From Lingula anatina (taxonomy: Eukaryota; Animalia; Brachiopoda): 64,000 nucleotides of DNA. Positions within the stretch are counted from its first letter, which is position 1; each line of letters begins with the position of its first letter. The stretch covers positions 51,252,788 to 51,316,787 of the forward strand of contig CM120640.1 in assembly GCA_051362555.1 (NCBI GenBank), given 5' to 3'. A program made the translations under genes and the position numbers. This document shows positions 39,901 through 63,290 of this stretch, in pieces. The notes beneath the pieces were generated by a model. The model saw only the letters and a program-made list of their open reading frames with translations, made no database searches and was not told the DNA's origin.

Positions 39901-41131
39901 CTGGCTGAGATAGGTCCGTAGTTACTATTGATTGAATAGGAAGTCATATATCTCCAAAACTGGCAGAGATAGGTCCATAGTTACTATTGAACTTGAATAG
40001 GAAGTCATATACTGGCAATCTAAATGTGACCTTGAAATTGACATTTGACCTACTTTTCACCATGAACTGAACTTTGCAAATTTTTCTTCCCTTTTATCTC
40101 CAAAACTGGCAGAGATAGGTCCATAGTTACTATTGAACTTGAATAGGAAGTCATATACTGGCAATCTAAATGTGACCTTAAAATTGACCTTTGACCTACT
40201 TTACACCATGAACTGAATTTTGCAAAATTTGCTTTCCTTTTATCTCCAAAACTGGCTGAGATAGGTCCGTAGTTACTATTGAACTTGAATAGGAAGTCAT
40301 ATACTGGCAATCTATATGTGACATTAAAATTGACCTTTGACCTACTTTTCACCATGAACTGAATTTTGCAAATTTTGCTTTCCTTTTATCTCCAAAACTG
40401 GCTGAGATAGGTCCGTAGTTACTATTGAACTTGAATAGGAAGTCATATACTGGCAATCTAAATGTGACCTTAAAATTGACCTTTGACCTACTTTTCACCA
40501 TGAACTGAATTTTGCAAATTTTGCTTTCCTTTTATCTCCAAAACTGGCTGAGATAGGTCCGTAGTTACTATTGAACTTGAATAGGAAGTCATATACTGGC
40601 AATCTAAATGTGACCTTAAAATTGACCTTTGACCTACTTTTCACCATAAACTGAACTTTGCAAATTTTGCTTCCCTTTTATCTCCAAAACTGGCAGAGAA
40701 ATTGACCCTTGACCTACCTTACGAAGAACTAAAATTTGATTGTACCATATATATTTTTTGCAATAGTTTAAAAATTCTTGTTGATTGCATTTTTACAGCT
40801 TGTCAAGCACAAAACTGGTGGCTGTGTCCCTTATTTTGTGTATGTGGGGGTCTACACGAATGCGCTTGCTCCAGCTGGTGGTACAATATTTGGAGGCGGT
40901 ATCGCCTCTCTGATCCTCTAGTTAACACTACAGTCAAGTATGCTATGTTTTTAACATCAACTTTCTTTTAACACTGAAATTTGAGATCATTCATGGAGGC
41001 TTATCAAAGTAAGAGATGACTGAGAATCAAAGTTATCTGGATATATATTTGGATAGGGTATTTTGAATGAATAAGTAAGGTAAAGTTGAGATTTGAAATT
41101 TGCCACATCAGTATCCCTTTTGGGGGATATA

Positions 41132-41176
<45 letters not shown>

Positions 41177-44100
41177 CCATCAGTAACTCTATCATTATGC
41201 CTTTTTATGTACAGACACAGATGTGTCTGTACATATAGCCATCATCTGCGTCTGTCGTCGCCGTCGCCGTTGGCGTGCACTGTAACTGTAAACACGATAA
41301 GTGAAAAACCGTTTTACCTTTTGGCTTGAAAGTTACAGAACTGATGAATATTCATAATACGCCGGTCAAGTTCGAAAATCAGCATGATCGGGCTATTTTT
41401 AGGGAAGTTATGCTGTTTTTTCAATTTTTTCAGCATATATGCAACACCATAAACACGATAAGTGGAAAACCGTTTTACCTTTTGGTTTGAAAGTTACAGA
41501 ACTGATGAACTTTTATAATACGCAGGTCAAGTTCAAAAATCAGCATGATCGGGTCATTTTTAGGGAAGTTATGCTTTTTTTTCACTTTTTTCAGCATATG
41601 TGCAACACCGTAAACACGATAAGTGGAAAACCATTTTACCTTTTGGCTTGAAAGTTACAGAACTGATGAATTTTCATAATATGCCGGTCAAGTTCGAAAA
41701 TCAGCATGATCGGGTCATTTTTAGGGAAGTTATGCTTTTTTTTCACTTTTTTCAGCATATATGCAACACCGTAATCACGATAAGTGGAAAAAGGGTTTTA
41801 CCTTTTGGTTTGAAACTTACAGAACTGATGAATATTCATAATACGCAGGTCAAGTTCAAAAATCAGCATGATAGAGCCACTTTTATGGAAGTTATGCTTT
41901 TTTTTCACTTTTGCCATCACCTGCGTCTGTCGTCGCTGTCGCCGATGCCGATGGCGATGCCGTCGCCGTGCACTTTCCTTGTAAACACGATAAGTGGAGG
42001 GCAGTTTTACTTTGTTCAGAATCTCAGAATAGAGGAAATTGGACATTTAACACTGTTATATTGATATTTTTCCCATCTCATCAATTTTCTTAGTTGGTCA
42101 TATAAAAATGGCAGTAACCTGTTAATTTTGTTTTATGTTAAAAAAATTGTTAAAAATGGGAAAAAAAACATTTCAGAACAGTGCTCTCTTGTGTACATTT
42201 TGGCATTTTCAAGTTGTGACTTTGAAGTTCCATGGGCCTGAAGATTTTTGCTAGTCACATTTTCTGAATATCCATGATACTAATATTTTATTATTAAAAT
42301 TGATGGTCATTATGCTGTTAAACATTATGTAATATTCCATCAAAATAAAAAAAAAAAACTATTTTGGGCACTGCTCCCATGATGACCATTTAAGAAAAAC
42401 AATGTCACATACTGTTCTCAAACAGTACAGTAAATACGTACAAATTTGTCTGTACATATTGCCATTACCTGCATCTGCCGTCGTCACCGTCACTGTCACT
42501 GTTGCCAGCGCCGTGCACTTTCATTGTAAACATGATAAGTGGAAGGCAGTTTTACTTTTTGGTTGTATATTTAAAGAGCTGATGAATATTCATAAAACGC
42601 AGGTCAAGTTTGAAAATCAGCATGATCGGGCCATTTTTGTAGAAGTTATGCTGTTTTTTCACTTTTCAGCATATATGCAGCACTGTAAACACATTTAAAG
42701 GAAAACTGATAGGCCTGTTGTCATGAAACTCACAGGAGTAATTAATCTTATTATAACGCAGGTCAAGTTCGAAAATCGGCATGATCGGGCCACTATTTTA
42801 GTAGTTATGCTTTTTTTTTCACTTTTCAGCATTTATGCAACACTGTAAACACAATATAAGAAAAACAGGCCAATTGTCATTAAACTCACAGGAGTGGTCA
42901 TTCCTGCTAAAATGCAGGTTGAGTTAAAAAAACAGCATAACCATTAAAGAAATGCCGTTTTTTCACATTTCCTCAGATTCAATTCTTAGGCATGTTAACA
43001 GTCTCATTATTTAACTAATAAGACACGTAAAAGTGTTTGTTTGACATTTCCTGCATCTTTACAACATTATTAGTTGATTATGTAAAAATGATGGTAAACT
43101 TGTTATCGTGTATTGTGTAATAAACTTTCAAAAATGGAAATAAACTCATATCATTGCAGTTTGTCAGATTCAATCATTAAAATTTGATGTATAATTTGCA
43201 GTTTAACATAATGTACTTTTGCATCAGAATTGACAGTAGCCTATTTTGTGCATAGTTATTTCCTGTTTTTTGCCTGTACATTTGACAGCTTTGCTGCCTT
43301 GTTTCAGCATATATGCAACACCGTAAACACGATAAGTGGAAAACCGTTTTACCTTTTGGCTTGAAAGTTACAGAACTGATGAATATTCATAATATGTCGG
43401 TCAAGTTCGATATCAGCATGATCGGGTCATTTTTAGGGAAGTTATTCTTTTTTTTCACTTTTTTCAGCATATATACAACACCGTAAACACGATAAGTGGA
43501 AAACGGTTTTACCTTTTGGTTTGAAACTTACAGAACTGATGAGTATTTATAATGCGCAGGTCAAGTTTGAAAATCAGCATGATAGAGCCACTTTTATGGA
43601 AGTTATGCTGTTTTTTTTCATTTTTTTTCAGCATATATGCAACACTGATAACACAATATAAGAACAAGGCAGCAAAGCTGTCAAATGTACAGACAAAAAA
43701 CAGGAAATAACTATGCACAAAATAGGCTACTGTCAATTCTGATGCAAAAGTACATTATGTTAAACTGCATATTCAACATTAAATTTTAATTATGCTCAAC
43801 AGGTAATACCAATGTAAGTAAAATGTGTAACAAGCATAAGGCTTCAGGCCCATGGGAGTTCAAGTTCACACTTTGAAAATGTATAACTTCCAGAAAAAGA
43901 AGCCATTTAGACTGCTTTTCCAACTCAGGCTGCATTTTAGTCCTGTATTTCTTTTTTGAAAGTTTGACAATCATAAGTAACATGGTTTTCCCATAATGGT
44001 CATCATGGCAGCAGCACCCAAAATTGTGTTTTCTTCTATTCTGGTGCAATATTACATAATGGTTAACAGCATAATGACCGTCAATTTTTAATAATAAAAT

Positions 44101-44850
44101 ATACGTATCATGGATTTCCAGAAAATATGACTAGCATGGGTTTTCAAGCCCGTGGAACTTCAAAGTCACACCTTGAAAATGCCAATATGTGAAAAATTAA
44201 ATTTTCACAAAAAAATGTTTAACTGGCAGAAAGAATTACCAAACAGACTGCATTGCCTACTGAAGCTGTATTTTAGTCCCATGTTTCTTTCCTGTAAGTT
44301 TGAGAACAGTAAGTGACATGTTTTTTCTTAAATGGTCATCAAAGGAGCAGTGCCCAAAATAGTTTTTTTTCAAATTTTGATGCAACATTACATAATGTTT
44401 AACAGCAAAATAACCATCAATTTTTAATAATAAAATATTAGTATTATGGAAATTCAGAAAATGTGACTAGCAAAGGTCTTCAGGCCAATGGAACTTCAAG
44501 GTCACAACTTGAAAATGCAAAAATGTGTGTATTGTGTAATGAAGTGTCAAAAATGGAAATAAACACATCATTGCAGTTTGTCAGATTCAATCATCCACTA
44601 TGTTCAGAATCTCAGAATGGAGGAAATTGGACATTTAACACTGTTATATTGATATTTTTCCCATCTCATCAATTTTCTTAGTTGGTCATATAAAAATGGC
44701 AGTAAACTGTTAATTTTGTTTTATGTTTAAAAAGTGTTAAAAATGGAAATAAACCCATTTCAGAAAAGTGCTGTCTTGTTTACATTTTGGCATTTTCAAG
44801 ATGTGACTTTGAAGTTATGCAGGTAAATTTTGTTTAATATTGCAAATAAG

Positions 44851-44893
<43 letters not shown>

Positions 44894-47250
44894 CGAAGAT
44901 TAAAAGTTTGAATAACAGCTTCATTGGAATTATATTTACCTCTGCCAAGGAGGTTATGTTTTCACCCCTGTCTGTCATCAACATAACTCAAAAAGTTACG
45001 GACCGATTTTGATGAAATTTTCAGGAACTGTCGGAAGTGGGCAAGGAGGACAATGATTAGTTTTTGGTGGTGGTCCGGATCAATAATCAATCAATAAGCA
45101 ATAATAATCAACAATTGCTGTCTTGGCAGAGGTCTGCGCTCTCAGAGTGCTTTTCTAGTTTTGTTATGTTTTCCTTTTTAATTTTCAAACACTGGCATTT
45201 GTGACTTTTAACTCTCATCCTCCTGAGGCTCTGCACATTTTCTGTTTATCCACATAAGCAGTTGTATTGTTTTTTATGTCTTTAAACATTATGTAATATT
45301 ATTTTATGCACTGTCATCATTTTTCAAATATTGAGACTTTCATCATGTGAATTTGAACTCTCATGGTCCTGAAACTGTAATCTTATTGAAGGGGTGGATT
45401 GAGACCATCTTCTGGGTCTTCCTGAGGACGATCAGGTTATTAAGTTTATATTGACTGGTATCTATTTTTTTTCTGTTGGAAGACCATAAAAATGGGGGAT
45501 GGATCAACATAGATACTTTGGAATACTGTCAGAAAATATCTCTGGGTTCGCACCTGTTATTGACCATGGTACCTGTTGTGCATGATTAAAATTCAGTGTT
45601 AACTGACACTGCTATTATAAGCATTATTTATTATTGCATCAAAATTGACAAAATGACCTATTTTGCATCTTTATTTTCTGTTTTTTGTCCGTACATTTGA
45701 CAGCTTTGCTGCCTTGTATTAGTTCTGTGACCTGTGTTGCAAATAGCAGATATTAATTTAATATTGTTAATGTGTTTGATGATCATTTACCTAGGATTGA
45801 GTCTGGACACAGATTTTGGACTCCAAGAGAGTTAAATGAAGATTTTGTGAACAATGTAAGTTTTAAGCTTGGCTTGTGCTCATCATTAAAGGGACTGTCC
45901 ATACAGTGTTTGATTAGATATAGAACGCTATCTTCTTTTTAGATACGTAAATAAAACACCCTACCCAAAACTTCTTGAAAATGATTTTCTGGTAAAAAAT
46001 GGATTATGTGAAATATTGTTTTCATTTAAGGAGTCACTGGAAGCTCTCAGAACTAGAACAATAGAATTTTCAGGAACATTTGAACCTGTCAAATGGAAAT
46101 GCAGAGCTCCAATGCCTAGTGGCAAGTTATGTGAAAGAATGGATAGAATTAAGGTAAATCATGGTCATAACATGATAAATAGGTAAATGTGCTGTTTTAG
46201 TATGGTTGTCATTTTATAATGGTAATAACCCAGGTAGCAATGGCAGGATGTGTCAAGACCATGTGTCAGCAGTTTTGCTGAAAAGATTTAAAATACTTGC
46301 AAATACCATTACTTGTAAGCAAAAACTGAAACCCTATTTTACTTGCTTTTAGTGCCCCTTTCATGGCAAGATCATTCCCAGAGATGAGCAAGGTAAACCA
46401 TCAAATCCAGATGATGTGGTGAGAATAAAGGAAGAAGAGGACAAAAAGAAAGCAGGTACATAGTTTGTTTTATTAGACACAAGTGTTTTCATTTTAATTA
46501 ATAGATAGTAATACAGAAGTGAATCACAATCAAATTCACGGGGTATAAATGTTGTATAAATGATAGACTCATGATATACAAGTACATGTGTTAAACATTC
46601 CTCACTGTTTATAACATTGCACCATCAAGTTTGACTGCAGTTGTTTAGAAAACTAGATGTAAAACAATTTATCATCTGCTTACAGAAGCTGTTCCTGACT
46701 GGCAAGACCCTGTCCTCCTCAGAGAACTGGAGGCAGCAACAGGTATTGATTTAACTGTGACAGCAGGCAAAAGAGGGAAAGGAAAAGGCAAGGGGAAAGG
46801 GAAGAAAAAATTTCCAAACCTTACTGATATTAAAGCTGCTGGAAATACATCTAGGAGAAGACTAGAGAAGAAAGTCCTTAACAAGTAAGTAGATTGATTT
46901 GTGAGCTATTATTACGTAACAGTAGTATTTGTGCAAATATTTCCTTGATAATGTCATATACCTTGACTAGTAGCAATAGATTTGACCTTGTATGTGCTTA
47001 GAAAATAAGATTACAGTCATCAGGTTTTTTTTTTTTTTTTTTTTTTTGCTTTTGTGAACTTCATGAGCTACTCTGAAATGAAACTCAAATTTGTTTTCAC
47101 ATCACATAAATGATATGCAGTATCTTGCTAATATTAAAATTACTTTCCCACAGGTCTGCCTTAAGAAGAGTGACCAATGCATTAGACAGTTTGGATTATA
47201 AACTGGCAAAAGACAGATTTGCAAACCAGTTCAATTATGCGTTAAAATGA
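33932..47250 (+). CDS. UVSSA: UV-stimulated scaffold protein A (transcription-coupled NER), about 14 coding exons; start codon could be 33932, 33956 or 33965
   Basis: VHS-like N-terminus [20 protein letters not shown] / [23 protein letters not shown] / [17 protein letters not shown]. Also [32 protein letters not shown], zinc finger [31 protein letters not shown], and C-terminal [10 protein letters not shown]. Confidence 0.95.
36244..36366. repeat. ~120-bp foldback element built from GGATCCTATA units, with CCC...GGG ends
   Basis: Left arm AAAAAGTCCTATAGGATCCTATAA..CCTATAGGAAAT mirrors right arm ATTTCCTATAGG..TTATAGGATCCTATGGGACTTTTT around a short loop. Confidence 0.85.
38007..40922 (+). mobile_element. 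Helentron-type non-autonomous element (HINE family 2), structurally complete
   Basis: 5' ATTGTACCACCAGC-GTTAGC-GCTGGCGGTACA palindrome and (GGCTCCGCC)n tract. 3' subTIR GCTGGTGGTACAAT (40874-40887), hairpin GAGGCGGTATCGCCTC and terminal CTAGT. Confidence 0.85.
39016..40700 (+). repeat. 146-bp tandem array, about 11.5 units, inside HINE family 2
   Basis: TCTCCAAAACTGGC starts at 39016, 39162, 39308 and onward. One unit is truncated (39892-39950). Confidence 0.95.
41134..41174. repeat. (TG)n microsatellite
   Basis: Seen directly. Confidence 0.95.
41207..45717. mobile_element. Rearranged cluster of HINE family 1 sequence, forward and inverted segments, in a UVSSA intron
   Basis: Same 5' palindrome and ~161-bp units as 14973-19014. 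3' ends at ~43302 (+), ~43663 (inverted, AACAAGGCAGCAAAGCTGTC) and ~45717 (+). Confidence 0.8.
44936..45159 (+). mobile_element. Short HINE family 3 element nested in the family 1 cluster
   Basis: TTACCTCTGCCAAG-GAGGT 5' end, subTIR CTTGGCAGAGGT, hairpin GCGCTCTCAGAGTGC and terminal TTTTCTAGT. Confidence 0.8.
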
Positions 47251-47893
47251 TGACAGTTTAAGAACTAAAATGATTTATTATAATTTTTACATTTCAAAAA
47301 CTAACTTGGAAAAGACTTACCTATTATAGCTATTTTATACATGCAGTTCAAAGACTTTTTTTTATTAAGGGTGCAATAAGCTATAAAATGTATAATATAT
47401 TTTAATGAATGAATGTTAGTGTCATTTCTGTATGAATTGTCAACCTGTCATCTGTATCAAAAACATGTTAAAGTAAATTTAATTTGTTTTTTATTGTAGC
47501 ACTAATAAAGAATAAGAAATCCTCATTACTTGTTATTCATTTCTTTGCTTGAAATACACTATTTTTATTGCATGAGTTAGTATTTCGTTTTGGATTTTGT
47601 TGGGCATCAATTTAGTGATTTAGTATTGTGCGTGTTAAAATTGTTTGAAAACAGTGTTTGTTCAAGTAGAAAGAGAATATTTCGAAAAAATTATGACAGC
47701 CATTTATTGTACATAAAGAATATTTTTTCAATTTTTATTTGAATGTTCACGGGAGAAATAAGTCTTAATGTGTTAGAGATTAAAACAGTCTGTACTTGGT
47801 ACGTGACTACGGTCACGTAGGTTTGAAGAGGGCTTTCTTGTGTAATGTTGAAGTTGTAGCATCGGTGTGTACAGAAATCCTTTTTGGGACAAA

Positions 47894-50800
47894 ATGGCAT
47901 GTTGTGTGCACCACGTTGAAATCGGTGTAAAAAACGGATTATGTGCACTGAAAAAATTAACAAATTCATTTCCATTCAAGGTGATTGCAACAAGGCAGGC
48001 AGAGGAGTTCAGACAATGGGTAGTACGCACTGGATCAGCTATGTTTTTACTAACGGAACCACTAGAATCTCGTGTGTCGTCTGAATCTGATGTAAGTTGG
48101 GATAGGTGCTTGCGTAACCACGAGTATATATCAAATTGGTCTGAAAATATCAACCAAAGCACTTGGAGTATTAGCAAAAAGAAGGCAGTTGACTCAGTAT
48201 TCAACATTGCGTTGGAGGTTAAGGAAGTAGAACGTATGGTAGAGCGTGTTGCGCGGTTTGGGGGCAAGATTGTGCGACCACCAAGGCAAGTTGAAAACGA
48301 ACATGGGACCGTTACATATGCAACGGTAAAATCGGTTGTAGGAAACATTAACCACACTCTAATAAACTCCTCAGAATATTCAGGTGTATTTTTACCAGGC
48401 TTTAAATCAGAGAGTGAAAACGTCTCTGTTGACATGCAAAGCAATCACATGTTGTCTCACTTCGATCATGTTACATATGCTTGCCCAATGGGGGTGTCCA
48501 ATCAAGTGTTGAAATGGTATGAAGATTGTTTTGGCATGGAGCGTTTTCTCATAAATAGGTAAGATCTTTACCAATCACTTTAATTCACTTTGCATGTATG
48601 TTTACAGTGATCAGTACTCCTATTTGTTATTTCATAATCACTGTTGTGACTTTTACAAAAGTTAATTAGAATATCTTCAATTGCCAACACTGCTCTGGGC
48701 CTGAACCTCAGTTTTTTCCCCACTATCTTTCATTTTCATCTGCTCAGACATGCTGAAACTGATGGTCCGATCAGTCATGACCTGGAACATTTGTCTGGAC
48801 CAGTAAAAAATTGGACTTGTCCGATCCAAAGGACCGACAAGAGTTTGTAAGAGCCACAATTTTGAATTTACAGTCATCGTTCGCCATACTTTACTATTAA
48901 AATTATATAAAACCCAAAGTGTTTTTTTCCTTCCATTTCAAACTTTCACATTCACAAACAAAGTAAGCTACCTAATCGTACTGGTAGTATATGTCTCAAA
49001 TTAATAGAGTAATTTTCTGTCCAACAAAAATCCATTCGGTCCAACAAATTTTTCATTACTGCCAGTCCAAATGTCCGGCCATTCTTAAAAGTTTTCAGCA
49101 TGTCTGCCTGCTGAAAGTGAAAATTACCACTGGTTGCAATATGTTTTCACAATAACACATGCATGCTTTCTGCTCTAAGTAAAACTATAAAATATGAATA
49201 AGTATGCTAAAGACAAAAAAATGTAATACAATTGTAATAACTCAAGAAAACCACATATAAGTACTAGTAGATATTCAAATGACAATGTACATTTACTTTT
49301 GATGAAGTTGAGTCCATTTATCCTTCTAGTGATGAAGACAGATCTGAAGGGTTTCTTGTGGAAGGAAACGATGTTGGAATGAGGCTTATGGCAATGGAAT
49401 ACTGGAAATGTGCAGAGACTGGCGTCTCCTATCCTTGTGCCAAAGTTAATAGTCTAAAGATAGTTGTTGCCGAGCCACTGCCTGGACAAGGTATTAAGAT
49501 ATAGGCTAATCTTTGGCTTGATAAATCGTATGATGTGGTCCATTTGAAGAATATCTGGATATGTTGATATTTATAGTATAATGTTAACAAAACTTTAATT
49601 TTTACTAAACCAGCTAATGTTTTTTGGAATTTTTTATTTGCCCTGCTTCAACAGTTATTTTGTTTTCAGCATTTGTATTGAGTTATAATAAATTTATGCT
49701 TCACAGATGCTTGAAATGATAAGATTACTTCAATTTATTGCTCTGTAGTAGCTTTAAAAGACATGCAGATAACTTGAAGTAGTGCTAAGGAATTGGCTTT
49801 ACATAGAAAACACCTGTATTAAGACACATTTCATATATATTTATATGTACTAGGATTGCACCATTTTTTTTATTTGGTCCCATTGCATAGTTTTATATGC
49901 AAACATAAAAATGTGAAAATAAACAAATTTATGTGTAAGGGGTATACTGTTCAAAACACATTTAGCATGCTTGGGGGCGGGGGGAATTTTTCAGTCCTGG
50001 CTTATCATCCTTGAAGAAATTAAAAGTCATTGTTTTAGTATAATTATTATTATGGGTTGTTTAATTTTTTATTTGTATGGCCGTATCTGCCTCTTGTAGA
50101 ATATAAGATACTAAAACTACAAAATATTTTCAAAATTTTAGGTCCAAATCAGGTAGAGACTTTCCTTGAGCAGCATGATGGTCCAGGTGTGCAGCATATT
50201 GGTCTTCACACAGGCGATATAATCTCTTCCTCTCAGTTACTCAGAGACAGGGGTGTGGTCTTTCTCAAACCACCACCAGCATATTATTCTAAGGTAAAGC
50301 GAGAAAGGGTGAACTAGCAGTGCTTTAACTAACAAAAATGTTTCAGTTGATCGTTTTCTTCTTCTCTTCTTTTAATCAATATTGGTGAGTTGAAGTAGAG
50401 TATATGTTCATTTTTTAAAATCCCAAGTCCGTTATATAAGATTTCATTTGAAGCAGACTTATTTATAATAGAACTTTCATTTTTTTTTAAGCTTGGAAAA
50501 TTAGCAGAGATAGAAAAGCTTGGCATGGATGCAAAGAGGTTACAGGAGTGTGGGGTGTTGGTAGATGATGAAGCTGATGCTGGGCAGCATGTAGAGAACT
50601 GTAACAGGATGGGTGTCAGGTAAGCATTGATTCAGACAAACACATTTTATAACATGCTGGTGATGTGACAAAGTTGAAAATAAAGTCATGTTGTAAAACA
50701 TTTGAAATGTTTAGTCATAAAACTAGCATTCTTTAATAAGCATTATCCGATGATTTTTCTCATGTGGAATGTAATAAATTGTGAATAATATTATATGAAG

Positions 50801-51027
50801 AATGCATTTATTTGACATTTGTATGCAGGTACTTGTTGCAAATGTTCACAAGACCAATATTCAAGGAAGACACTTTCTTCATAGAAATCATTCAACGTTG
50901 TGGAGCTACTGGGTTTGGTGCAGGCAACATACGAGCTCTTTGGCGATCTGTTCAAGCTTTCTTAGATGAAAAGACTCATGTAACAGCTCAAAAGGAAGAA
51001 ATCTCATCAACCGAACAAAAAAGTTGA
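47894..51027 (+). CDS. HPDL: 4-hydroxyphenylpyruvate dioxygenase-like protein, 5 coding exons
   Basis: Exons 47894-48558, 49330-49490, 50142-50293, 50492-50619, 50829-51027. The Fe-binding triad is seen in [19 protein letters not shown] and [18 protein letters not shown] and [15 protein letters not shown] fit HPDL better than HPD (GNFNSLF). Confidence 0.9.
48745..49106. mobile_element. hAT-like MITE in HPDL intron 1
   Basis: Perfect 14-bp TIR CAGACATGCTGAAA / TTTCAGCATGTCTG. Flanks are TCTGCT / CCTGCT. Confidence 0.75.
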
Positions 51028-52180: not shown

Positions 52181-55100
52181 TCAGCACTGTGCTACTGAAT
52201 CTGGTCTTTTTCTAGGTTTTGGTGGAATGGATGGTTTTGCTACACCTGACTTACTGCGCTGGACTGGCTTTGCAGGCCCACTTCCCTCTGAATTTTCCTG
52301 ACTCAGTTTGGCTATCCTGTCTTTTACACTCACTCCCCGTGATACCTCAGACTCTCTAGCTGAAACAGGCCGGGGTTTGAATTCAGTCAATGTTTGTGGT
52401 TGAGACCTAAATTGTACAGAAGCAGGCCTGGCTCTGGGTTGAAACATGGGTTTAACAGACCTGCTGGGTTTCTCAGGAGCTTTTGAACGGCCATTCAGTG
52501 GAGCCTCCTCATCACCTGGTATTACTTCATAGATATTTTCTCCAGTGGACTGATCTGTCCAAGGTTTGGGTGGTGGCTCATACAAAGGATCGCTGTCTAA
52601 GTCTGTGTTACTATTGTTATTGTTACTATTGTCAAACTTAAATTTCTGCTTCATGGCTGATACTATGCCCACTTGTGGTTCTGAAGGTGACTCTGAAGCA
52701 TCTGTGTCTGCTATGGGTGACAAGGGTGCTGGTGGGGCTGGTCTTAGGGGTACTGGCTTCGACTGAGCTTGAGGGAGACTTGGTGGTTTAAGAGGTTGCT
52801 GTTGTCTTGTTGGTGGTTTCAGTGGTTTGGTGGGGAGCTGGTTAGGTCTGGTTAACTGACTAGGTCTGTTTGGTGGTGGCTGGAACTTGACTGGTGGAAC
52901 ACTAGGGCGTGGTGGAGGTTGATTTTGATTAGCACTGGACTGATCACTGTTTTCTGACCATGGTTTGGGTGGTCTTGCAGGCTTTCCTCCAGTTACATAC
53001 CCACTGTCTTCATCACTGTTTTCAGAATCTGGCAAGTTGGCATAGACAGTTGGTCTCACTATTACTCTTGGCTTCTCAATGAATTTAGCATCTTTAAATG
53101 ATGGTGTTCTGTTAGTTGTGCTCTGAAGTACTGGGTTGGAAATTGGCATCTTTGCAGATCCAGTGCTAGGTTGCCTGTTAACTGGGTCTTTAGGGACAGG
53201 TGCAGGTGGTGGTGGAGGTCTCTCTTGAACACTTTGAGCCGCTACTGCAGCAATACTAGGTGGGGGTCGAGGCTTGCTGGGAGATTTAACAGACGATTCA
53301 GATCTTCTTGAGGATTTAGGTGGGGCTGCATCCCTATTGAGTAAAATAATGATTTCATTGTTAACATAATTTATCAAAGATTTCTTTTAGTAAAAGATGA
53401 TAGTATATAAAAATTAGTGAAAAATAAATATTTACTCATTTGAAAAAGAACCAAACGTTATTGACTTTCTTTTCTAGTTCTCAAACCATCCTAAGCTGTA
53501 TTAAATTCCTGGCATTTAAATCTACCTAGTCTAATTATCTAGAGCTTGAATGTTCTGATACAATTAAATTTCATTTCACTTTCATAGGACAATACAAATG
53601 AGAGAAAATTACACATTTGCAGTAGGATTTTTAAAAACCTCCTTCCTACTAGTTTTAGAAGCATATTGCAAACAATTCTTACTTATATTTGTATGCAGCA
53701 GAAGCCTTCTGTCCCCACCAAACTTTGAGTTGCTCTCTGTATCGATAGGCGAAAAATCCACCAATCACAAGGAGAGGAACAATAAGCAGGAAGAAAATCA
53801 GGAGTCCTATCATTAACAAATTGTCACCTGAAACAAACAGGTAAAAATTCCATAGGGTAAAAATCATAAAAGAAATGGAGTTTTCAAAATCAACAAGAAT
53901 GTATACATCCTTCAGTGCCACTTATCCAATAACAGAGAAAAAAAACCCATACTGATAAACAAAAACATAATATAATTGGAAACCCAGTAGCCTACATTGT
54001 TCATTGCAAAGCAGAAATTAAGGCATTTACATGCAGTGACCAGCAATTCCATATTATAAAGCAAAGCATTTGGTTATAATGTCACATTAGATGACATCCA
54101 AGTTACCTTGAGGTGGGATTTCTGTGGGTCTTATAGCAGTGTCAGAACTTTCAGTTGATTGTGCAACAGTGGAAGTAACAATGCTGTCTGTTTTATAAGT
54201 AACATTAAAAGATGTAACTGATACAGTAGAGGTAACTGACATTGAAGAAGTATCTAAAACAAAACATGCAAAAATAAAGGGTTATCACCTATAAGTATAC
54301 ACTAAAATAAAACAAGCACACATTTAGAAATCAGAATACAAAAGCAATAAGACAGTTAGTATAGCAGATGTGCTAGATCTGAAGACCATGAATCAAAGTG
54401 GAATTTGGCAATGCCATGCCAGCTGCAATTTATATAGATATCATGTAGACAAGTAAGCAGTGTCAACACAAAAAGTATCTAGTAAATGACTAAGCCAGAA
54501 CTACAAAGAATCAATTTTTTATTTACAAGAACTAAAATGGGCAATTTTACTTTCTATAGCTAAACAGAACTAACCTAGTTCTAAAGTCTTAATCTCTAGT
54601 CTAATTGAAGTTAGTTTGATTGTATGCCCTAAACGGCATTTGAATATCTAATGATTTCCCATCACTGCCATTAGAGTACTATTTATGGGCTGCATATTTA
54701 TTAACTACTGCCAAATGCTGCTGGTTCATGTATACCATTACATTTACACACATGTATACATTTACTAACTGTGTACACATGGATATGTAGCAGAGCTTAC
54801 CTTTGTTGCTAGAGGCCGGTCCACTGTCTACACTTCCCCCATACCCCGGTGTGTTACATAACGGGGGAGCCAAGCCAACTTCACAGTGACAATTATTATT
54901 GCTGTTACATATCTAGAACAAAAACATCGAAAATATGATGTGTCTATGTTTAAAAATTATATTGTTCATATAGATTTTTAAAACACTTTGTCTTGTATAA
55001 CATCAATAGAATGAAGAGCTTTGTGTTGTTACTAAGTTGTGTCATATAACTTACCCCGTTCTGATTACAATCCTCTGGACATGGAGCCACTCCAAGTTGG

Positions 55101-58100
55101 TCAAAAGACATACAGGTTTGGTTCACACATAGCTGAAATATCACGTGCAAATATGCAGTTTGATGAAAACAAATACATGATGATGATGATGATGATACAA
55201 CACTCAAACAACAAGACATCTGCATGCAACTAAGATGCAATTTGTAAACTGTGCACATTTCGAGTTCATCAATTTGCAATCATACTATTAAACGTGTTTT
55301 TTTTTCCACAAAGTACCAAGCTTCAAAAACCTTTTAATATGAAATATACTGGAATCTTCTAAACTGTGGAGCAGAAAGTATGTCTTTTCATGACCCTTCT
55401 ACTCACCAAAAAGACTGAGATATAAATTATATGAAACAACATCACATATTTATCACGATAAAACTACTTTGCTTACTTTATCTTCACCACACTTGGCACC
55501 ATCTGGTGTCATGCCAGGATCAAGATCATTTAATCCAACATCCAAAATGGCAGATTTGCATTTTATTCTCACGCCATTCACATCTAGAGTTGTATATGGC
55601 AGCAGTCTGGACAGGGCCTCTCTCCAAAACATAAGTTTTTCATTCTGGTGTTGACAGTGGAGCATCCCACACATAGTATCTCTGAAATAACAAGTGAATG
55701 AAAATGACAAAAGTTAACATAATCATAACACTCCGATTTTCATTTCTAATCCAATTTTTCAAAAACATTTAATAATAATTTGGCATGAGCAACTCTTTCT
55801 TGAAGTCTCAATGTTGTAACAATGAGATCTCACCAGCCTACTTGAATCTAAAATACTATTGAAAATTCCTTAAAAATCCATATTTAGCACAAAAGATGCA
55901 AAACTTACTCCTGTTTGCAAGCAGTGTAATTGTCATGGATCCAGCTGTAGCCACAGTTGCCAAACTCACTTCCTCTCGTGTTCAGCCTAGTATAGCAGAC
56001 TGGTGGCGACACCTGCCCAGTGCTCCCCCACAGCAGCTTACATTGGGCATCATGGGTAGTACACTTGCCCTGGTAGCAGTAGGACTGAAATATGAATGGC
56101 AAGATATTGTGCAAAGTTGAAGAGACTTAACGAAATACTGGCAAAAGACATGACAGTTAATCAACATACCAAGGTTCCACTTTACTAAATTGTTCTTTTA
56201 GCTTATAGAACCACTAGTCTGTAACATCTTAATGTTAATCAACCTTTACATACAATGATGTGTTAGTTGCCACTTTCAAGATGATATGATCATTCAGTTT
56301 GATACTGACTTGTCCACTTTTACAACTACGGCCATTCTGTACAAAAACATCTGCTGGGCAGTCCTCTGAATTCCCAGAACAGAACTCTGGCAGATCACAC
56401 TCTCCAGCCACTGGCCGACACTCTGTGGCCATAGGTTTCATCTGGCAGGTCTGTAGGTTACAGCAGGTACCCGTAGCACAGGTGGCATTGGTCATCAGAG
56501 TACAGCTGCTGGCATTACAACACTTGTTTTTACATTCCTGGAATATTTACAATCATTCTGGTCATGCGCAGAATTAATGGAAGGTAGTTTTCTCTTTCTA
56601 GGAACACAAGGGTATTACAGCGTTGTAAATATCTCTTCACTGTTCTCAAATACAATTTGACTGCTTTTTCTCTTACTTTCTTGGAAAGGTTACAATGTAA
56701 TAAGGTTGGGTACACCTGCAACGGCTACTGTTAGACTGGGTTCCCATGCATAGATCGATCCAAAAGGATAATTACCCCGTAATAGCTTTACTAGGCGTGA
56801 CAGACATTTAAGCCGGTTAAGTTGATAGCAATTTAGTGAGACTCTCCAGGGAGATAGATCAATCCAAATATCTGTGGGAATGGTCCCTTAAACAGCATGC
56901 TATGAATAACAATGCAATACTTTTGCTTACTGGTTCTAAGTAATGGCTTAAATTCAAATGCAAAGGTTGGTAACAAAAACATACAGAGACCATCAATTAG
57001 AATGTTTGGTATACATATCCCAACATTCCTGTGGTTAAGGTATTTTTTGACATAACAGAAACCAAGAAATTTTGCTGACTACATTTCACTGAATGATATT
57101 GTTAATTTCTGAAAAAATTTGAAGGAAAAAAATCCACATAATATTTAGCACTCGCAGTCCTTCTCACCTCAGGTAAGCCACAGTCACACTGTTCGCCATC
57201 CTCTACAAAACCATTGCCACAGGTTGGGCTACCAAACAGCCTGGTAGGCTTGTTCCTCAAGCAGTAGTCCATTCCTATGTCAAATGCTTCCTGCAGCTCT
57301 TTTTTGGAGCAAGATGACCACTTGGTAGGGTTACCACTCCTGTGAAGGAAAAATTAAAATTGTTTCTCAGCTCAAAATCTTTTGTCCCGGTGTTGTAACT
57401 ATAACTGTCCAATTTCAAGAAACCTGTTAAGGCGGCATAATTTCTTTTACATCATGACTCTACTCAGGATGTTTTGGAGCAACTTCATAATTTGAGATTG
57501 AAATTTGATGCAGGGAATTTAGATTAAACTTCTGAGTTGTTTGTGACTGCAAGATTAAGAGCAAATTTATGACAATGACTTCAACTTGTATCTGCTTATT
57601 TCTTAATAAAACTGTAATCCTCTGATATTGAAAATGCTTCAAGTAAAGTTGTGAAAAAGCCTTTTTAACAACAAGACAATTGGACCCAAAATGGCCAAAC
57701 TAAGTTTCCAAATGATCAGTTAACATTCCCCAACAGCCTTAAATTTTTTATATCCAATATGAAGCAACCTGGTGACTCCCAACTAGACCAATATTACCCA
57801 CGTAAAAGATATCTCTGTGAATTATGGCCTGTGATATTCAAGTTGTCAACATTGCCGTAGTGTCACCACCATGTGATTCTGCTTACCCTGTTGTTGCAGC
57901 CATGATGCACCTCTGTTCTGGACATTTACACACACTCAGGTTATCATGTGTCATGCCAAAGTTGTGTCCCATCTCATGGGCTACTGTGGTGCCTACTGGA
58001 CCAGGGAGCTCGCTGTGATCCTAGAAGATATATTAATTTAAAATTATATAAATTTAGAAAATTTACTCCATCTTTTCACACAAAAAAATTTACCAGTTTA

Positions 58101-61100
58101 TAAATTGCTATAAAATGCATGTAATGAAGATATTAAGTTTGCTACATTCTTCTATGTAATTCTATTATGAAGTCTATCTGAGTTTATTCCATAATGCTTT
58201 TAACAAAATTTTTTACAAATTACATGCATAAGAAAACAAACACTAAATGGAACACTAAGAAACCTGAAATCGTTTGATGAAGCAGCTTTTCCATTACAAC
58301 AAATGCTTAACAAAGTTGAAAATTTGTGAGAATAAATGAAAGGTGTGCAGGGATATAGCAATTATATAAAAGCAAGTATGTATCGTGCAGCACAGCATCA
58401 ATTTCTTTTAAAAAACTTTTTTTTAGATAGCTGCATTACAAACTTTGATACATTTATATTATCATAATTTTATCAACCAAGTCATTCTTATCTGAACCAA
58501 GTGTAAGTAAACTACAGACAAGGTCAACAATTGTAACTTCAGTCGGAAGACTGTCCATAGGAAGGCTGTATTTCCTAACATATAGTCTGTAGTATACCTA
58601 AACCATGCTGGGCTGAAAGTGCTACTTCATTAGTAATCACCATTCCGGTTAGTAACTAGGAACCACTGTAAGAAGTCATGCAGCATAACCACTAAACCAC
58701 ACTACAGAACAACATTATTATTTCAATAGAAAAGCACCAGCACTCCCAGTTTCCTTCCAGCATTGTGAACAGATCAAATATGGTATGAAACAAGTACATA
58801 CATCTTATCAAGTTTTACATGCAAATCAACTGACACCAGGAAAGGTTAATATTCCTTTAGTACCAGGGTTTATATTAGAGGAGCTACACTCAAGATGTTG
58901 AGCATATCTTTTATTCATATGTCAAAGAACTCACATTAAATGACAAAATAAAGATTTTCAACTACTGACTCAATTAACATCTCCAAGGTTCTATATTGTT
59001 AAAGAAATAATACATAAAAAGAAATAAGATCATAAGACACTGCTTGACTATTAAATCTTTTTGAAGTTACCACATCAAGCATTTGCCTTAAACAGTAGTT
59101 TTTCTTAGTGCTTTGGGAACCAAAGAAATATAACAGTTTTCATTATTTTCAGTGAAAAATGAAACTTAAAAAGTTTTATAAAACAATATTCTAACTCTTG
59201 ACCTGGTAACAAAGGGGTATCGTTTATGTCAAAAATCCACTTACAGTAACAGATTCTCTCTAAAATGCATGAGTTCACAATGACAATTTATGTCATTTCA
59301 GTAATACTACACTACAGAACACCTGAATTTGTAACAAACAATATAACAAAAGCAAAATGTGTACACAGTGAAATAACAAGGAAAACCAACTAGTGTGAAA
59401 GAAAACTTCCTACCCTAACAACACCCCCTGAATACCGGAAGGAACACATAGGAGTCTGAGATGCTTTCCCCAGAATTCTGTTTGCAAATACACCACCTCT
59501 GAAATAAGGTATAAACAAAAACAGACACAATGAGTGCACACCTAAAAAGCAGCTAGTGCTATGTGCATTGAGCTCTGCACAGATTAAAGTATGGCCAATT
59601 TTGGCAGTTCAGCAATTTATTAACATGTGCAATTGATTCACTATTCCTGAAATCATAATGAAGAGAAATTTTGTAAAATGTGAAGTACATGATATATATA
59701 TATATATGAATCTGCAACCCAACCATAAACCATACACAGAGGCCAACTTCTCTTCATAAGCCTCTGTGAATCAATCTTCCATGATTATTTATATACCCAT
59801 ACTGCCTGCCTATCTATTAGTAACTTTGCATTCTGTGTCTTTCAGCCCAGTTACCATACCAGCAAGTCAATTGCAAGCAGCTAAAGCCATATTTCTCGCT
59901 GAATTATCTCGAGTTGTCCTCGTGCATCCCAAGCAGTTGTGTTCACCAATTCTACTACCTAAAGACCAGGACAACATAAAAGACCTGCTCTTCCTGTACA
60001 AACCTACCGTATTAACACCGCCAGAGTAGCGATATGTGCATATGGGACGCTTGAGAGCTTTACCCACAATGCCATCTTTAAATGATTGACCACTGAAAAT
60101 GGCATAATGAACAAAACAGAGTAAGACAGAGGGCTGGATACATTGCAATAACTTATTAAGAATATTAATCTTGTCTTACATCATTTTTCCATAACTGCTT
60201 GGAATTTAAATCCTGTCAAACCATATTCCTTTGTTTTTGTCAGCTAAACAAATGCTAAAAAGACATTTCTACTAGATTTCAACATTTTACTCTTCAGAAA
60301 ATTCTTCAATTGTTTTATATAAATATACTGGTATTGTGTTTGGTCAGTCTTTTTTTAACTTACGTGATAAGTTGGCCGTTATCATTGGGAAAGTGGGGGT
60401 TGAGAAATGTTTTTCTATAGGAGAGAAAGTTGTTGAGGGTTACATCAGCATCCTGATCTACTATAATCTTATCCCCACTGTCCCACACCTCCACTCCTAC
60501 CAATGCCACATAGATGTCTAGCTCATTGTATAACTGAAAACACATTGCAATACATTAATGAGAAATATTAGCACCATGTGTGAGATGTTTGACAACTACA
60601 TAGTTAGAAAGGCAACAGCATCATCAACTGGTTAGCAAATCTTATGGTAGATGTACCTCAAATGGTATTACATACAATGTGATACAAAAACAAAAATTAT
60701 TTTCCAAATATTATGTTTTTCCACTAATTGTAACTTATAATCTAAATTACTTTAAATATCAAATAGAACAGTTACAGGATTTTTACTTACAGCACTGACA
60801 ATGTTGCCAATTTCTTTACTCCTCTGGATTACTTTTGCAACATTTTTTCCATGCATGTCAAACTAAAATAAATCAATAAATTTAGAAAGGAAAAGGGTAA
60901 TAAGACAAAAAAGTTTTGTGATAACAAAACATTATCTGAACAGAGACATCCAATAGAAATGTGCCGACATGTAATAGCTACTTAATCTCAAAGACAGAGG
61001 GAAAAGATAAAAGAGAAATATAGTAGTTATCTGAGTATGAAGGAGATATTTTCAAATTAGTAAGGTGGGGGGCAGTTGTACCTGTCTTGGACTCAGTGTG

Positions 61101-63290
61101 GATTGAATAATGATCTTTGATTGATTACAGAGACAGAGTAAAGTAGTCCATTATACTTCTGAATACCAATTTACTGACCTGTCTGTGATCACTAACTAAG
61201 AATAATTCCACGTATCTGGTCTTTTTACCACTATTATAGGGACCCCTGATGGCTCTGCGAAGCTGGAGAAAACAGTACAGTATAGAATATCACTTTAAAA
61301 GACATATTCAGATAATTTCTAAAATCTTAAACCTAATCACAATAAAAAATAAAATAAAAAACTTCTGGAAGTTAAGAAAAAGAAGAATGATACAGCATAA
61401 AATAAAAACAAATCTACTGAAAATGTTAATAGGCAAGAATACAAAAGGTAATGCAGACATGGTAATGAAATACATATCCCACATTGTATATAGAAAATAT
61501 ACCCATGTTAGATGACCCCTAGATTACTCAAATAATCTGATCTTATCTCAATCTCTTGTGAATATCAGCTTTCTTAAACAAATTATCATGATCAATTTGC
61601 TCACTGTTTGTAATTTCATGTGGTTATATATAGCATGTAAAACCCCTATGGCATGAAGACATGCAACCAATGGCTTAAAGCTTACCCTGTGTAAGTGTTT
61701 AGAGTTAAGTGAACGGTGGTAAAATGAAGGGAAATCATGGGCATGGTCACCAGTACCTTAAAAAGAGTTAAAAATAGTTTAACAAATACAATATTAAGCA
61801 TTCATTTGAGTGAAAGTGAGCCCTATATTGTCTTCCAAAGTAAAGCACAAAGCCTTAGTCATAGTGCCCTTTAATGACTTTTTAGAAGTTCTCATTCAAG
61901 GTGTCCACTTTTTAAAAATCATTTTATCTTCAAATTTACATATTTTTTTCTGCCCAATATACCCTGAGCCACATCCAGTTTACTTACCACATCTCAGATG
62001 CTGCTCATGTCTATCTGATGCTCTAAATACATGATGATGAAAGCCTGTAGAACCAGCTACTGGCTGAATATAATACTGCTCTGTACCATCTTGAAATAAC
62101 CCACTGGAAAGGGTGAACATATGACACTTTTTCAGTTTTTTGTACTTTTGCCACCATATACAAGCAGAATAAGAGATCTCTTTACCACCAGGTTACAAAA
62201 TGAAATGCGTTTTTTTTTTTTTTTTTTTTTCTTTTTTTTTTTTAACAAGTGTCCTGTGCTTTACCAACTAAAACTTATCACAAAATTCTGGAAGAGTGAA
62301 TCACTGAAAAAAACTTGCTACAAACCACATCATATATTCTAACTACATAATAGTACCAAAACATGAAAGTCACGGAAGCATGAAATTGTTTATATCTAAT
62401 TTTCAGACAAACATGTTAATGGGATGAATAAGGAACAAACATCTAAATAAGACTGCTACAAAGCTATTTTACAATCACTGGCCCTAATACAGTTCACAAA
62501 AAAAATTCATTCTTATCAATAAATAATGATTTTCCCAGTATAGATGTACATATGGATCTGTGTGCAGCATTATGAAATTAACGAAACATGTTTCAAGATA
62601 AGGAGGACATGGCCTGTGAAGGCAGCATTTTCCTGCTGCTTCTTAGCATTATCAACAAATTTTTAAAGTTTCTAGAGACCTTTTGCATGTAATATTACTT
62701 GTGAGGCAGTGGCCATCCTTGCTGGCGACACTGTCAAAAACATTGAGGATTTTTTTACAAATGAATAGACAAATAAGATTTCAAGCTCTATCAATAATCC
62801 ATGGACTAGTAAAACATTTAAAATGCTAGAAAGGATCCTATAGCTAGATGTATAGAACTTTGACATGATCACATCATCATATCATATAAAAAGTCAGAAA
62901 CTATCTTTTTAAGTTTAATTTCATGCTGTTCTAAGGCGAAAGGCCGCTTTTCTCTGGTTATCCATCAACTGGTTACATTCATACACTACACCTTTTTCGC
63001 ATTAGTGTATGAAGAGAAGAATGCTAGGAAATAGTTAAAGTCAATTTAAAAAGATTTATTCAAAATTAAAATCTTAATGAAAATCAATAATATATTACCA
63101 AAACTGACCGGAGTTGTTGATTATATAGTCAACAGCAGAGAAAACACATCACATTATGTTATTTAACCAATAAACCTTTATTTCCTCAACCACAAAATGA
63201 CCCTTACCTTAACCCATCACAGGTACTTAGTGCTATTAGAGATTCCTCTTCATGTCTGATCTTCCCATGATAAAAACAGTGATGGTTTTT
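52181..63290 (-). CDS. ADAM (disintegrin and metalloprotease), ADAM12/meltrin-like, active type; 5' exons lie beyond the window
   Basis: Prodomain [16 protein letters not shown] (63208-63290), Cys-switch HLRCG, furin-type [13 protein letters not shown]. Zinc motif [13 protein letters not shown] plus CIM Met-turn (~57886-58020). Disintegrin [15 protein letters not shown] / ECDLPEFC, Cys-rich and EGF exons ending [10 protein letters not shown] exon 53683-53827, and Pro-rich cytoplasmic exon 52181-53333. Confidence 0.93.
56735..56890. mobile_element. Short MITE family, copy 3 (inverted, internally shortened)
   Basis: TAGTGAGACTCTCCAGGGAGATAGATCAATCCAAATATCTGTGGGAATGGTC approximates the reverse complement of the 9180 copy start. 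Confidence 0.65.
59414..59498 (-). CDS. ADAM alternative exon B (85 nt)
   Basis: tttcag|A GGT GGT GTA TTT..GTT GTT AGG|gtagga, encoding [28 protein letters not shown]. Confidence 0.85.
60008..60092 (-). CDS. ADAM alternative exon A (85 nt)
   Basis: tttcag|T GGT CAA TCA TTT..GTT AAT ACG|gtaggt, encoding [28 protein letters not shown]. Confidence 0.9.

What the first reader, a model, noticed from the sequence alone, without database searches (positions are those of the whole stretch)
59414..60092. Duplicated mutually exclusive exons swap the active-site edge strand of an ADAM protease
Seen: two exons of exactly 85 nt with the same phases (2 to 0) and intact tttcag/gtagg splice sites, between the GQLIT exon and the [12 protein letters not shown] exon. 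They encode [28 protein letters not shown] and [28 protein letters not shown]. Structural residues (F, I, GKA, P-x-C, RYSGGV) are kept while codons have diverged, which suggests both are under selection. Including both or neither shifts the frame. Established: in reprolysin-type metzincins this segment contains the bulge-edge and strand IV that line the cleft and pair with the substrate. Inference: one gene makes two proteases with different specificity or TIMP sensitivity through a splice switch. Exon B is invisible in the ORF track. I do not know whether this has been described in other invertebrate meltrins.
Basis: partly seen in the sequence, partly recalled or inferred. Interest (0 to 1): 0.8.

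Follow-up and report, generated by a model that had tools for sequence, protein, structure and literature searches.

The report
Swappable active-site exon in brachiopod ADAM
A cell-surface protease gene of the lamp shell Lingula has two copies of the exon that builds the rim of its cutting site; RNA reads show either copy spliced in, so one gene makes two enzymes that likely differ in what they cut, and a predicted RNA helix would hold the second copy down.

Summary
The gene is the meltrin-type ADAM of Lingula anatina. Reads from 8 RNA runs join the upstream exon to A (68) or B (23), and A (65) or B (7) to the HEMGH exon. No A-to-B or skip-both join was listed. B is therefore not a dead duplicate, but it is not hidden either: RefSeq already lists both forms as X1 and X2. 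A is the ancestral type (119 of 119 homologues are closer to it). B keeps the family-invariant residues and changes those flanking strand IV. No second copy was found in other animals, so the duplication looks lineage-restricted; no other brachiopod could be tested. New here: exon B is predicted to form a 36-pair helix with an intron element 650 nt downstream, looping out its own donor (1 of 3000 shuffles; best of 32 exon-intron pairs). Altered specificity and the helix's role are inferred, not shown. The scan earlier noted a parallel pair in arthropod ADAM17 (unchecked AI note). Verdict: a real new member of a known kind, of moderate interest.

The parts
60364..60533 (-). Upstream constitutive exon U (M12B domain, ends ...GQLI + phase 2)
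   Evidence: Reprolysin profile positions 38-93, E 7e-13
60008..60092 (-). Exon A, 85 nt, ancestral-type copy (residues 316-343 of P0001 = RefSeq X1); major form
   Evidence: U-A 68 and A-D 65 junction reads; 119 of 119 homologues closer to A
59414..59498 (-). Exon B, 85 nt, derived copy (residues 316-343 of P0004 = RefSeq X2); minor form
   Evidence: U-B 23 and B-D 7 junction reads
57887..58020 (-). Downstream constitutive exon D with [11 protein letters not shown] zinc motif and CIMA Met-turn
59431..59470 (-). 5' arm of the predicted long-range helix, inside exon B (codons G325 to first base of S338)
   Evidence: prediction only
58728..58764 (-). Intronic element E, 650 nt into the B-D intron; predicted 3' arm (30 Watson-Crick + 6 G-U pairs, 4 small bulges, no mismatch)
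   Evidence: score 54 vs shuffle mean 29.6, sd 3.7, reached by 1 of 3000 intron and 4 of 3000 exon shuffles; most pair probabilities 0.9-1.0 in a 1501-nt fold
60057..60117 (-). Predicted hairpin pairing exon A's polypyrimidine tract (60117-60096) with exon A (60078-60057)
   Evidence: 0 of 300 shuffles; pair probabilities 0.64-0.99; weaker in the energy test, 9 of 30
52181..63290 (-). Host gene inside the window (its 5' end lies outside): prodomain, M12B, disintegrin, cysteine-rich, EGF, stalk, TM and proline-rich tail; meltrin-type ADAM of Lingula anatina

Best explanation
The Lingula meltrin-type ADAM gene splices in one of two tandem copies of the 85-nt exon that encodes the rim of the active-site cleft, giving a major ancestral-type enzyme (A) and a minor variant (B) that likely stays active and likely differs in substrate or inhibitor preference; B is predicted to be held down by an RNA helix over its own coding sequence. 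Shown: both forms are spliced on both sides; B is about a quarter of the upstream junction reads; double inclusion or skipping shifts the frame. Inferred: (1) the duplication arose in the lineage leading to Lingula, because A and B share I323 and R336, which are rare in other animals. (2) B keeps the fold and catalytic scaffold (F319, G325, A327, C333, S338-G-G-V) but replaces meltrin-conserved rim residues (G322R, V324L, K329Q, I332M, T334S, plus L328S and R330T), so basic charge moves from behind strand IV to the bulge-edge in front of it. (3) Element E pairs with exon B and encloses B's donor in a loop of about 670 nt, so B would be included mainly when it is defined before E is transcribed or when the helix is opened. 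(4) Nonsense-mediated decay would clear A+B and skip-both messages.
For: Junction reads in 8 runs from 3 studies: U-A 68, U-B 23, A-D 65, B-D 7; no A-B or U-D joint listed. RefSeq X1 and X2 differ only at 14 residues within 317-343. Constraint on B: dN/dS about 0.4, simulation P 0.002; B residues S328, Q329, M332, S334 and V342 occur in other ADAM-like proteins. The B model superposes on ADAM8, ADAM33 and BaP1 at target-normalised TM 0.85-0.90. Mapping: 322, 324, 325, 327 and 329 equal SVMP 106, 108, 109, 111 and 113, which are inhibitor-contacting positions; Ile108 lines S1' and residue 106 alters contacts (PMC11684173, passages). TIMP-3 contacts the sIV bulge-edge strand of TACE (PMC5098442, passage). 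Helix: best of 32 exon/flanking-intron pairs and best of 89 non-self 1.4-kb tiles (54 vs 44); sense -45.3 vs antisense -29.7 kcal/mol; z -3.9, 0 of 20 shuffles. Read depth lies just inside the B-D intron in 6 of 8 runs, and RefSeq model P0005 runs on past B's donor.
Against: There are no enzyme data. G325-K326-A327 are unchanged, contacts there are mostly main-chain, and ADAM specificity also rests on the lower subdomain and exosites, which both forms share (PMC4885070, passages). AlphaFold confidence is under 50 at 324-338 for both forms, so the cleft was not modelled. No B-like protein or second copy was found elsewhere, and no brachiopod relative was available, so the helix has no covariation support. 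The helix was found by screening (corrected for 32 pairs, P about 0.02-0.05); in a whole-exon energy scan of 6394 tiles it led only narrowly (-50.7 vs -49.8 and -49.7). The B-D deficit is not significant (17:7 vs 30:28, P 0.14). Exclusivity is tested only down to a 3-read listing threshold, and RefSeq holds an A+B-joined truncated model (P0002).
Confidence: 0.5

Rival explanations
1. B is a tolerated, nearly neutral minor isoform: it must stay in frame and foldable because it is expressed, but it cuts the same substrates as A.
For: dN/dS between the copies is only about 0.4; B departs at 5 positions that are at least 90% conserved and kept by A; the strand IV core is unchanged; no conservation outside Lingula was found.
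Against: B has survived about one synonymous change per site with all splice signals intact, reaches 40% of upstream junction reads in study P1 (30:20) against 29:1 in P3, and its changes include charge swaps at cleft-lining positions.
Confidence: 0.27
2. B is a dampened form: weakly active, differently latent (prodomain or TIMP binding) or mainly adhesive, so the switch tunes the amount of shedding rather than the choice of substrate.
For: B replaces K329 (118 of 119 homologues) and T334 (119 of 119); the same rim binds TIMP-3 in TACE.
Against: The zinc motif and Met-turn lie in the shared exon D; B's residues occur in other ADAM-like proteins, and B's VVRDHS matches the active enzyme BaP1 at that place.
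Confidence: 0.18
3. Concerning the RNA step only: element E is a chance match or a neutral inverted copy of part of B, and exon choice is set by splicing factors plus nonsense-mediated decay.
For: No covariation data; narrow lead in the energy scan; found by screening several region pairs; E has no competing partner near A, so it cannot by itself enforce exclusivity.
Against: All 6 departures from perfect complementarity in the alignment are G-U pairs, although the scoring favours this; the sense strand pairs 15 kcal/mol better than the antisense; the three exons with the strongest pairing to a flanking intron are the three alternatively spliced ones.
Confidence: 0.4
4. B is a dead duplicate that is never productively spliced.
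For: B-D joins were not listed in the 4 runs or in 2 of the 4 runs.
Against: B-D reads in X2 (5) and X3 (2), U-B reads in 6 of 8 runs, and a full-length RefSeq X2.
Confidence: 0.02

Closest known systems
RefSeq isoforms X1 (XP_013402377.1) and X2 (XP_013402378.1) of the Lingula anatina ADAM9/12-like gene
   Same: The same two exons; the proteins differ only at 14 residues within 317-343.
   Different: Automated models with no interpretation; no paper on them turned up in the listings.
Homologous mutually exclusive exons at functional sites (PMC7954323, passages seen)
   Same: Tandem homologous exons that keep the fold and vary surface residues near ligand and protein-binding sites.
   Different: That paper's main text has no occurrence of protease, ADAM, peptidase or Meltrin, and its 6 held supplements none of ADAM, Meltrin, metalloprote-, reprolysin or mmd; image supplements and its web resource were not seen.
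ATE1 exons 7a/7b (PMC7797038; abstract, introduction and first results section seen)
   Same: Duplicated enzyme exons whose ratio is set by a long-range helix (R2-R5) sensitive to transcription speed.
   Different: The ATE1 elements are intronic, conserved and include a competing module. Here one arm is coding sequence, no competing partner was found, and nothing is tested.
Insect serpin-1 alternative reactive-centre-loop exons (PMC10513286, passages; the Manduca papers seen only as titles in its reference list)
   Same: Splicing swaps the specificity-bearing segment in a protease system.
   Different: There the swap is in the inhibitor, in terminal exons with many copies; here it is an internal pair in the protease itself.
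Tandem substrate-binding-strand exons in arthropod ADAM17 (earlier scan note e1-9849094, unchecked)
   Same: Reportedly the same structural segment is swapped in another ADAM.
   Different: A different ADAM subfamily, reportedly old and widespread in insects; the Lingula pair is in a meltrin and looks lineage-restricted, so the two would be convergent.

Membership tests
Tandem-duplicated homologous mutually exclusive exons | Adjacent homologous exons of similar length and the same phases | tested here: met
   85 and 85 nt, phase 2 to 0, 14 of 28 residues identical
Tandem-duplicated homologous mutually exclusive exons | Each exon spliced to both flanking constitutive exons | tested here: met
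   All four junctions in raw reads
Tandem-duplicated homologous mutually exclusive exons | Double inclusion and double skipping absent or rare in mature RNA | tested here: met
   None listed against 163 single-inclusion junction reads, at a 3-read listing threshold; caveat: RefSeq model P0002 joins A to B
Tandem-duplicated homologous mutually exclusive exons | Pair conserved in related species (supporting, not required) | tested here: inconclusive
   No second variant in 20 clusters of other animals (110 of 146 listed members carry the segment); single copy in L027 and L063; no brachiopod or phoronid was identifiable among the hits
Meltrin-type ADAM (M12B) | Pro, M12B, disintegrin, cysteine-rich, EGF, TM and cytoplasmic domains in order | tested here: met
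   nearest homologues are named ADAM9/12/19-like and meltrin
Meltrin-type ADAM (M12B) | HExxHxxGxxH zinc motif and Met-turn | tested here: met
   [11 protein letters not shown] and CIMA in exon D
Meltrin-type ADAM (M12B) | Proteolytic activity of each isoform | not testable with these tools
   needs an enzyme assay
Docking/selector competing RNA structures (Dscam, ATE1 R1/R3/R4) | One docking site complementary to a selector for each exon | tested here: not met
   E pairs with B at -47.0 but with the matching part of A at -19.7; the next partner in the U-D region is -27.3 and lies downstream of E; intron-intron pairs were at shuffle level
Docking/selector competing RNA structures (Dscam, ATE1 R1/R3/R4) | Conservation or covariation of the paired elements | not testable with these tools
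   no related genome held (none among the loci)
Steric-hindrance MXE | Branch point of the second exon too close to the first exon's donor | tested here: not met
   A-B intron is 509 nt; branch-point-like CTCAT at -33 and last upstream AG at -45
U2/U12 incompatibility MXE | Mixed major- and minor-spliceosome sites | tested here: not met
   Donors GTAAGT, GTAGGT and GTAGGA are all major-type (minor-class consensus recalled)
NMD-enforced MXE | Double inclusion or skipping creates a premature stop upstream of later junctions | tested here: met
   actual decay was not tested

The most novel reading that the evidence does not exclude
ADAM proteases have independently evolved a splice switch on the same cleft-lining exon at least twice (brachiopod meltrin here, arthropod ADAM17 in an unchecked scan note). 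In Lingula the very codons that set the variant's specificity residues form one arm of a long-range RNA helix that acts as a transcription-speed-sensitive switch between two sheddases with different substrates.
Probability: 0.2. Interest if true: 0.68.

Novelty: new member of a known kind. Interest (0 to 1): 0.42.

Why it matters
How ADAM sheddases choose substrates is still open (PMC4885070, introduction passage). Here two natural enzymes are identical except for 14 residues around strand IV, which gives a clean test of how much the cleft rim contributes apart from exosites. If the helix is real, it is also a compact case of coding sequence under joint protein and RNA-structure constraint. 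The weight is limited: the organism is not a genetic model, the isoforms are already annotated, and exon swaps near functional sites are a known principle.

Tried and rejected
No genome is held for this window, so no search of paralogous loci or relatives was possible. No indexed RNA holder was listed; the runs came by species label. Searches with exon B plus flanking codons found nothing (5 candidates, none at E <= 10; weak evidence), and a B-centred search of 1.84 billion representatives returned no B-type protein (best identity to B 15 of 28 among the 85 of 134 new hits whose segment could be parsed; clustering at 50% hides isoforms). Three hits with repeated or interrupted matches (P0010, P0215, P0218) were gene-model insertions, not second copies; P0283, with 7 stretches, was not examined. 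Exon A alone found no PDB sequence. Full-length AlphaFold models from 30-sequence alignments were uninformative at the cleft. Steric hindrance, U12 incompatibility and a shared docking site were rejected. Acceptor hairpins: A and B have the two lowest fold energies of 16 acceptors (-21.9, -21.7), but an A-tail/B-head chimera folds as well (-22.9), so co-evolution of each hairpin is not claimed. The difference between studies (P 0.0002 on reads, 0.005 on distinct starts) is not claimed as tissue regulation: tissues are unknown, X9 had 5 further short-overhang reads with a B consensus, and the depth share of B spans only 0.16-0.31. The Drosophila MXE survey was not held. No complex prediction was sent.

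Full report
Observation. A model built from 17 exons in the window is open for 1077 codons with either A or B, and runs into early stops with both or neither. The copies share 50 of 84 nt and 14 of 28 residues; 8 of the 14 shared residues use different codons; dN is 0.46 and dS 1.09; uniform random change gave as good a result in 0.2% of 20,000 trials. Both copies are thus under protein-level constraint, with B under the looser one.

Identity. Exon U matches one database protein at 100%: Lingula anatina ADAM9-like X1 (P0001). Its cluster holds X2 (P0004), which differs only at 14 residues within 317-343 and carries exon B, plus four partial models from a second scaffold. One of these joins A to B with a frameshift (P0002) and one runs from B into the intron (P0005). 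The pair is therefore already in automated annotation. The nearest homologues are protostome meltrins at 53-63% identity over the M12B domain, with one gene model at 44%.

Expression. Eight RNA runs from three studies were laid on 57701-60700, each read only in part (6-30%). Junction reads per run, X1, X4, X7, X9 then X2, X3, X5, X8: U-A 7, 5, 13, 13, 17, 6, 4, 3 (68); U-B 4, 1, 0, 1, 13, 3, 1, 0 (23); A-D 12, 1, 15, 9, 12, 5, 1, 10 (65); B-D not listed in the first four, then 5, 2, 0, 0 (7). No A-B or U-D joint was listed; the listing threshold is 3 reads. B is 40% of upstream junction reads in study P1 and 3% in P3 (P 0.005 on distinct starts), but depth shares are 0.16-0.31 and tissues are unknown, so regulation is suggested, not shown.

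Evolution. All 119 listed homologues are closer to A (mean 18.5 vs 10.9 of 28 identical). A and B share I323 (3 of 119) and R336 (1 of 119), which points to a duplication after the split from molluscs, nemerteans and arthropods (inference). In 20 clusters of other animals, 110 of 146 listed members carry the segment and none shows a second variant; one cluster varies at a single residue among its members. Five unnamed genomic loci (L019, L023, L025, L027, L063) have this exon with the same boundaries, so the 85-nt unit is old. L027 and L063 span the whole U-to-D interval and hold one copy; they may be paralogues. No brachiopod relative could be examined.

Protein. Alignment to BaP1, ADAM8 and ADAM33 puts residues 322-329 on SVMP positions 106-113. 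Inhibitors bind there through the main chain of 106, 108, 109 and 111; Ile108 lines S1', and the nature of residue 106 changes contacts (PMC11684173, passages). TIMP-3 contacts the sIV bulge-edge strand in TACE (PMC5098442, passage). B keeps F319, G325-K326-A327, P331, C333 and S338-G-G-V, and changes five positions that are at least 90% conserved in meltrins and kept by A: G322R, V324L, K329Q, I332M, T334S, plus L328S and R330T. Basic charge moves from after strand IV to the bulge-edge; that these sides face the non-primed and primed subsites is recalled knowledge. Several B residues occur in more distant ADAM-like proteins. The B model superposes on ADAM8, ADAM33 and BaP1, but confidence at 324-338 is under 50 for both forms. 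Against a large effect: contacts are mostly main-chain, and the lower subdomain and exosites are shared (PMC4885070, passages).

How exclusivity and bias could arise. Steric hindrance and U12 incompatibility do not fit. Frameshift-linked decay fits the sequence (mechanism as listed in PMC6071210, passage). A screen of nine region pairs turned up a duplex between exon B and the B-D intron. On follow-up, B 59470-59431 pairs with 58764-58728 in 36 pairs (30 Watson-Crick, 6 G-U, 4 bulges). It was reached by 1 of 3000 intron shuffles and 4 of 3000 exon shuffles, and is the best of 32 exon/flanking-intron pairs and of 89 non-self tiles. Most pair probabilities are 0.9-1.0 in a 1501-nt fold, z is -3.9 for the 821-nt region, and sense is -45.3 against antisense -29.7 kcal/mol. 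The matching part of A pairs at only -19.7 and no competing partner was found, so this is not a docking/selector system. The helix covers codons 325-338, including six B-specific residues, and encloses B's donor, which would repress B. The match led only narrowly in a whole-exon energy scan, corrected P is about 0.02-0.05, the deficit of B-D reads is not significant, and there is no covariation evidence. A second predicted hairpin covers A's polypyrimidine tract.

Comparison with what is known. Homologous MXEs that keep the fold and vary residues near functional sites are a described class (PMC7954323, passages). ATE1 gives a precedent for a long-range helix that sets MXE bias (PMC7797038, abstract and two sections), and serpins for swapping a specificity loop (PMC10513286, passages). 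Searches, judged from listings only, showed no paper on catalytic-domain MXEs in a meltrin or on this gene. PMC8373072 has no ADAM or protease term in its main text; two of eight supplement occurrences were seen, one rejecting an ADAM15 prediction and one noting a conserved prediction in ADAMTS13, and the other six were not read. Subscription journals and bioRxiv supplements were not searchable. An unchecked scan note reports a parallel pair in arthropod ADAM17.

Verdict. The pair is real, expressed and mutually exclusive within the depth tested, already annotated, and apparently lineage-restricted. The functional difference is likely but untested, and the exon-masking helix is a new, testable prediction. 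New member of a known kind; interest 0.42.

Noticed in passing
window 54253-54107 (- strand), inner acceptor at 54187: The Ser/Thr-rich juxtamembrane stalk exon occurs in three forms in RefSeq models: full 49 residues (P0003), 27 residues through an inner acceptor (P0001), and skipped (P0006). It also pairs with its downstream intron better than 299 of 300 shuffles. Stalk length could tune reach or shedding of the ADAM itself.
   Followed up: partly
window 60067 (exon A): In run X8, 4 of 13 reads (2 starts) carry a change that turns V324 of exon A into L, the residue B has there; allele or error, not resolved. Changes at 60032 and 60041 are synonymous.
   Followed up: no
window 52181-63290: The window's protein differs from P0001 at a few residues and matches P0002/P0005 at one prodomain site, so the two RefSeq loci look like haplotypes or a split assembly of one gene.
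   Followed up: partly
window 58100-59400: Scattered intronic read depth in the B-D intron in all 8 runs, including poly(A) libraries, often next to B's donor; possibly slow removal of this intron.
   Followed up: partly
window 47852-51024 (+ strand): Convergent neighbour with a glyoxalase/dioxygenase-fold match (PF00903, E 9e-5); resembles a 4-hydroxyphenylpyruvate dioxygenase-like gene (recalled, untested).
   Followed up: no
window 1339-5350 (-), 19428-27220 (+), 34166-46885 (+): Exon fragments that look like an asparaginyl-tRNA synthetase, an Integrator subunit 3-like gene and a UVSSA-like gene (names recalled from motifs, untested).
   Followed up: no
window 7422-8278 (+); 14874-18069 and 41403-44678: A frameshifted retroelement-like remnant, and a dispersed repeat family seen as recurring similar reading frames.
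   Followed up: no
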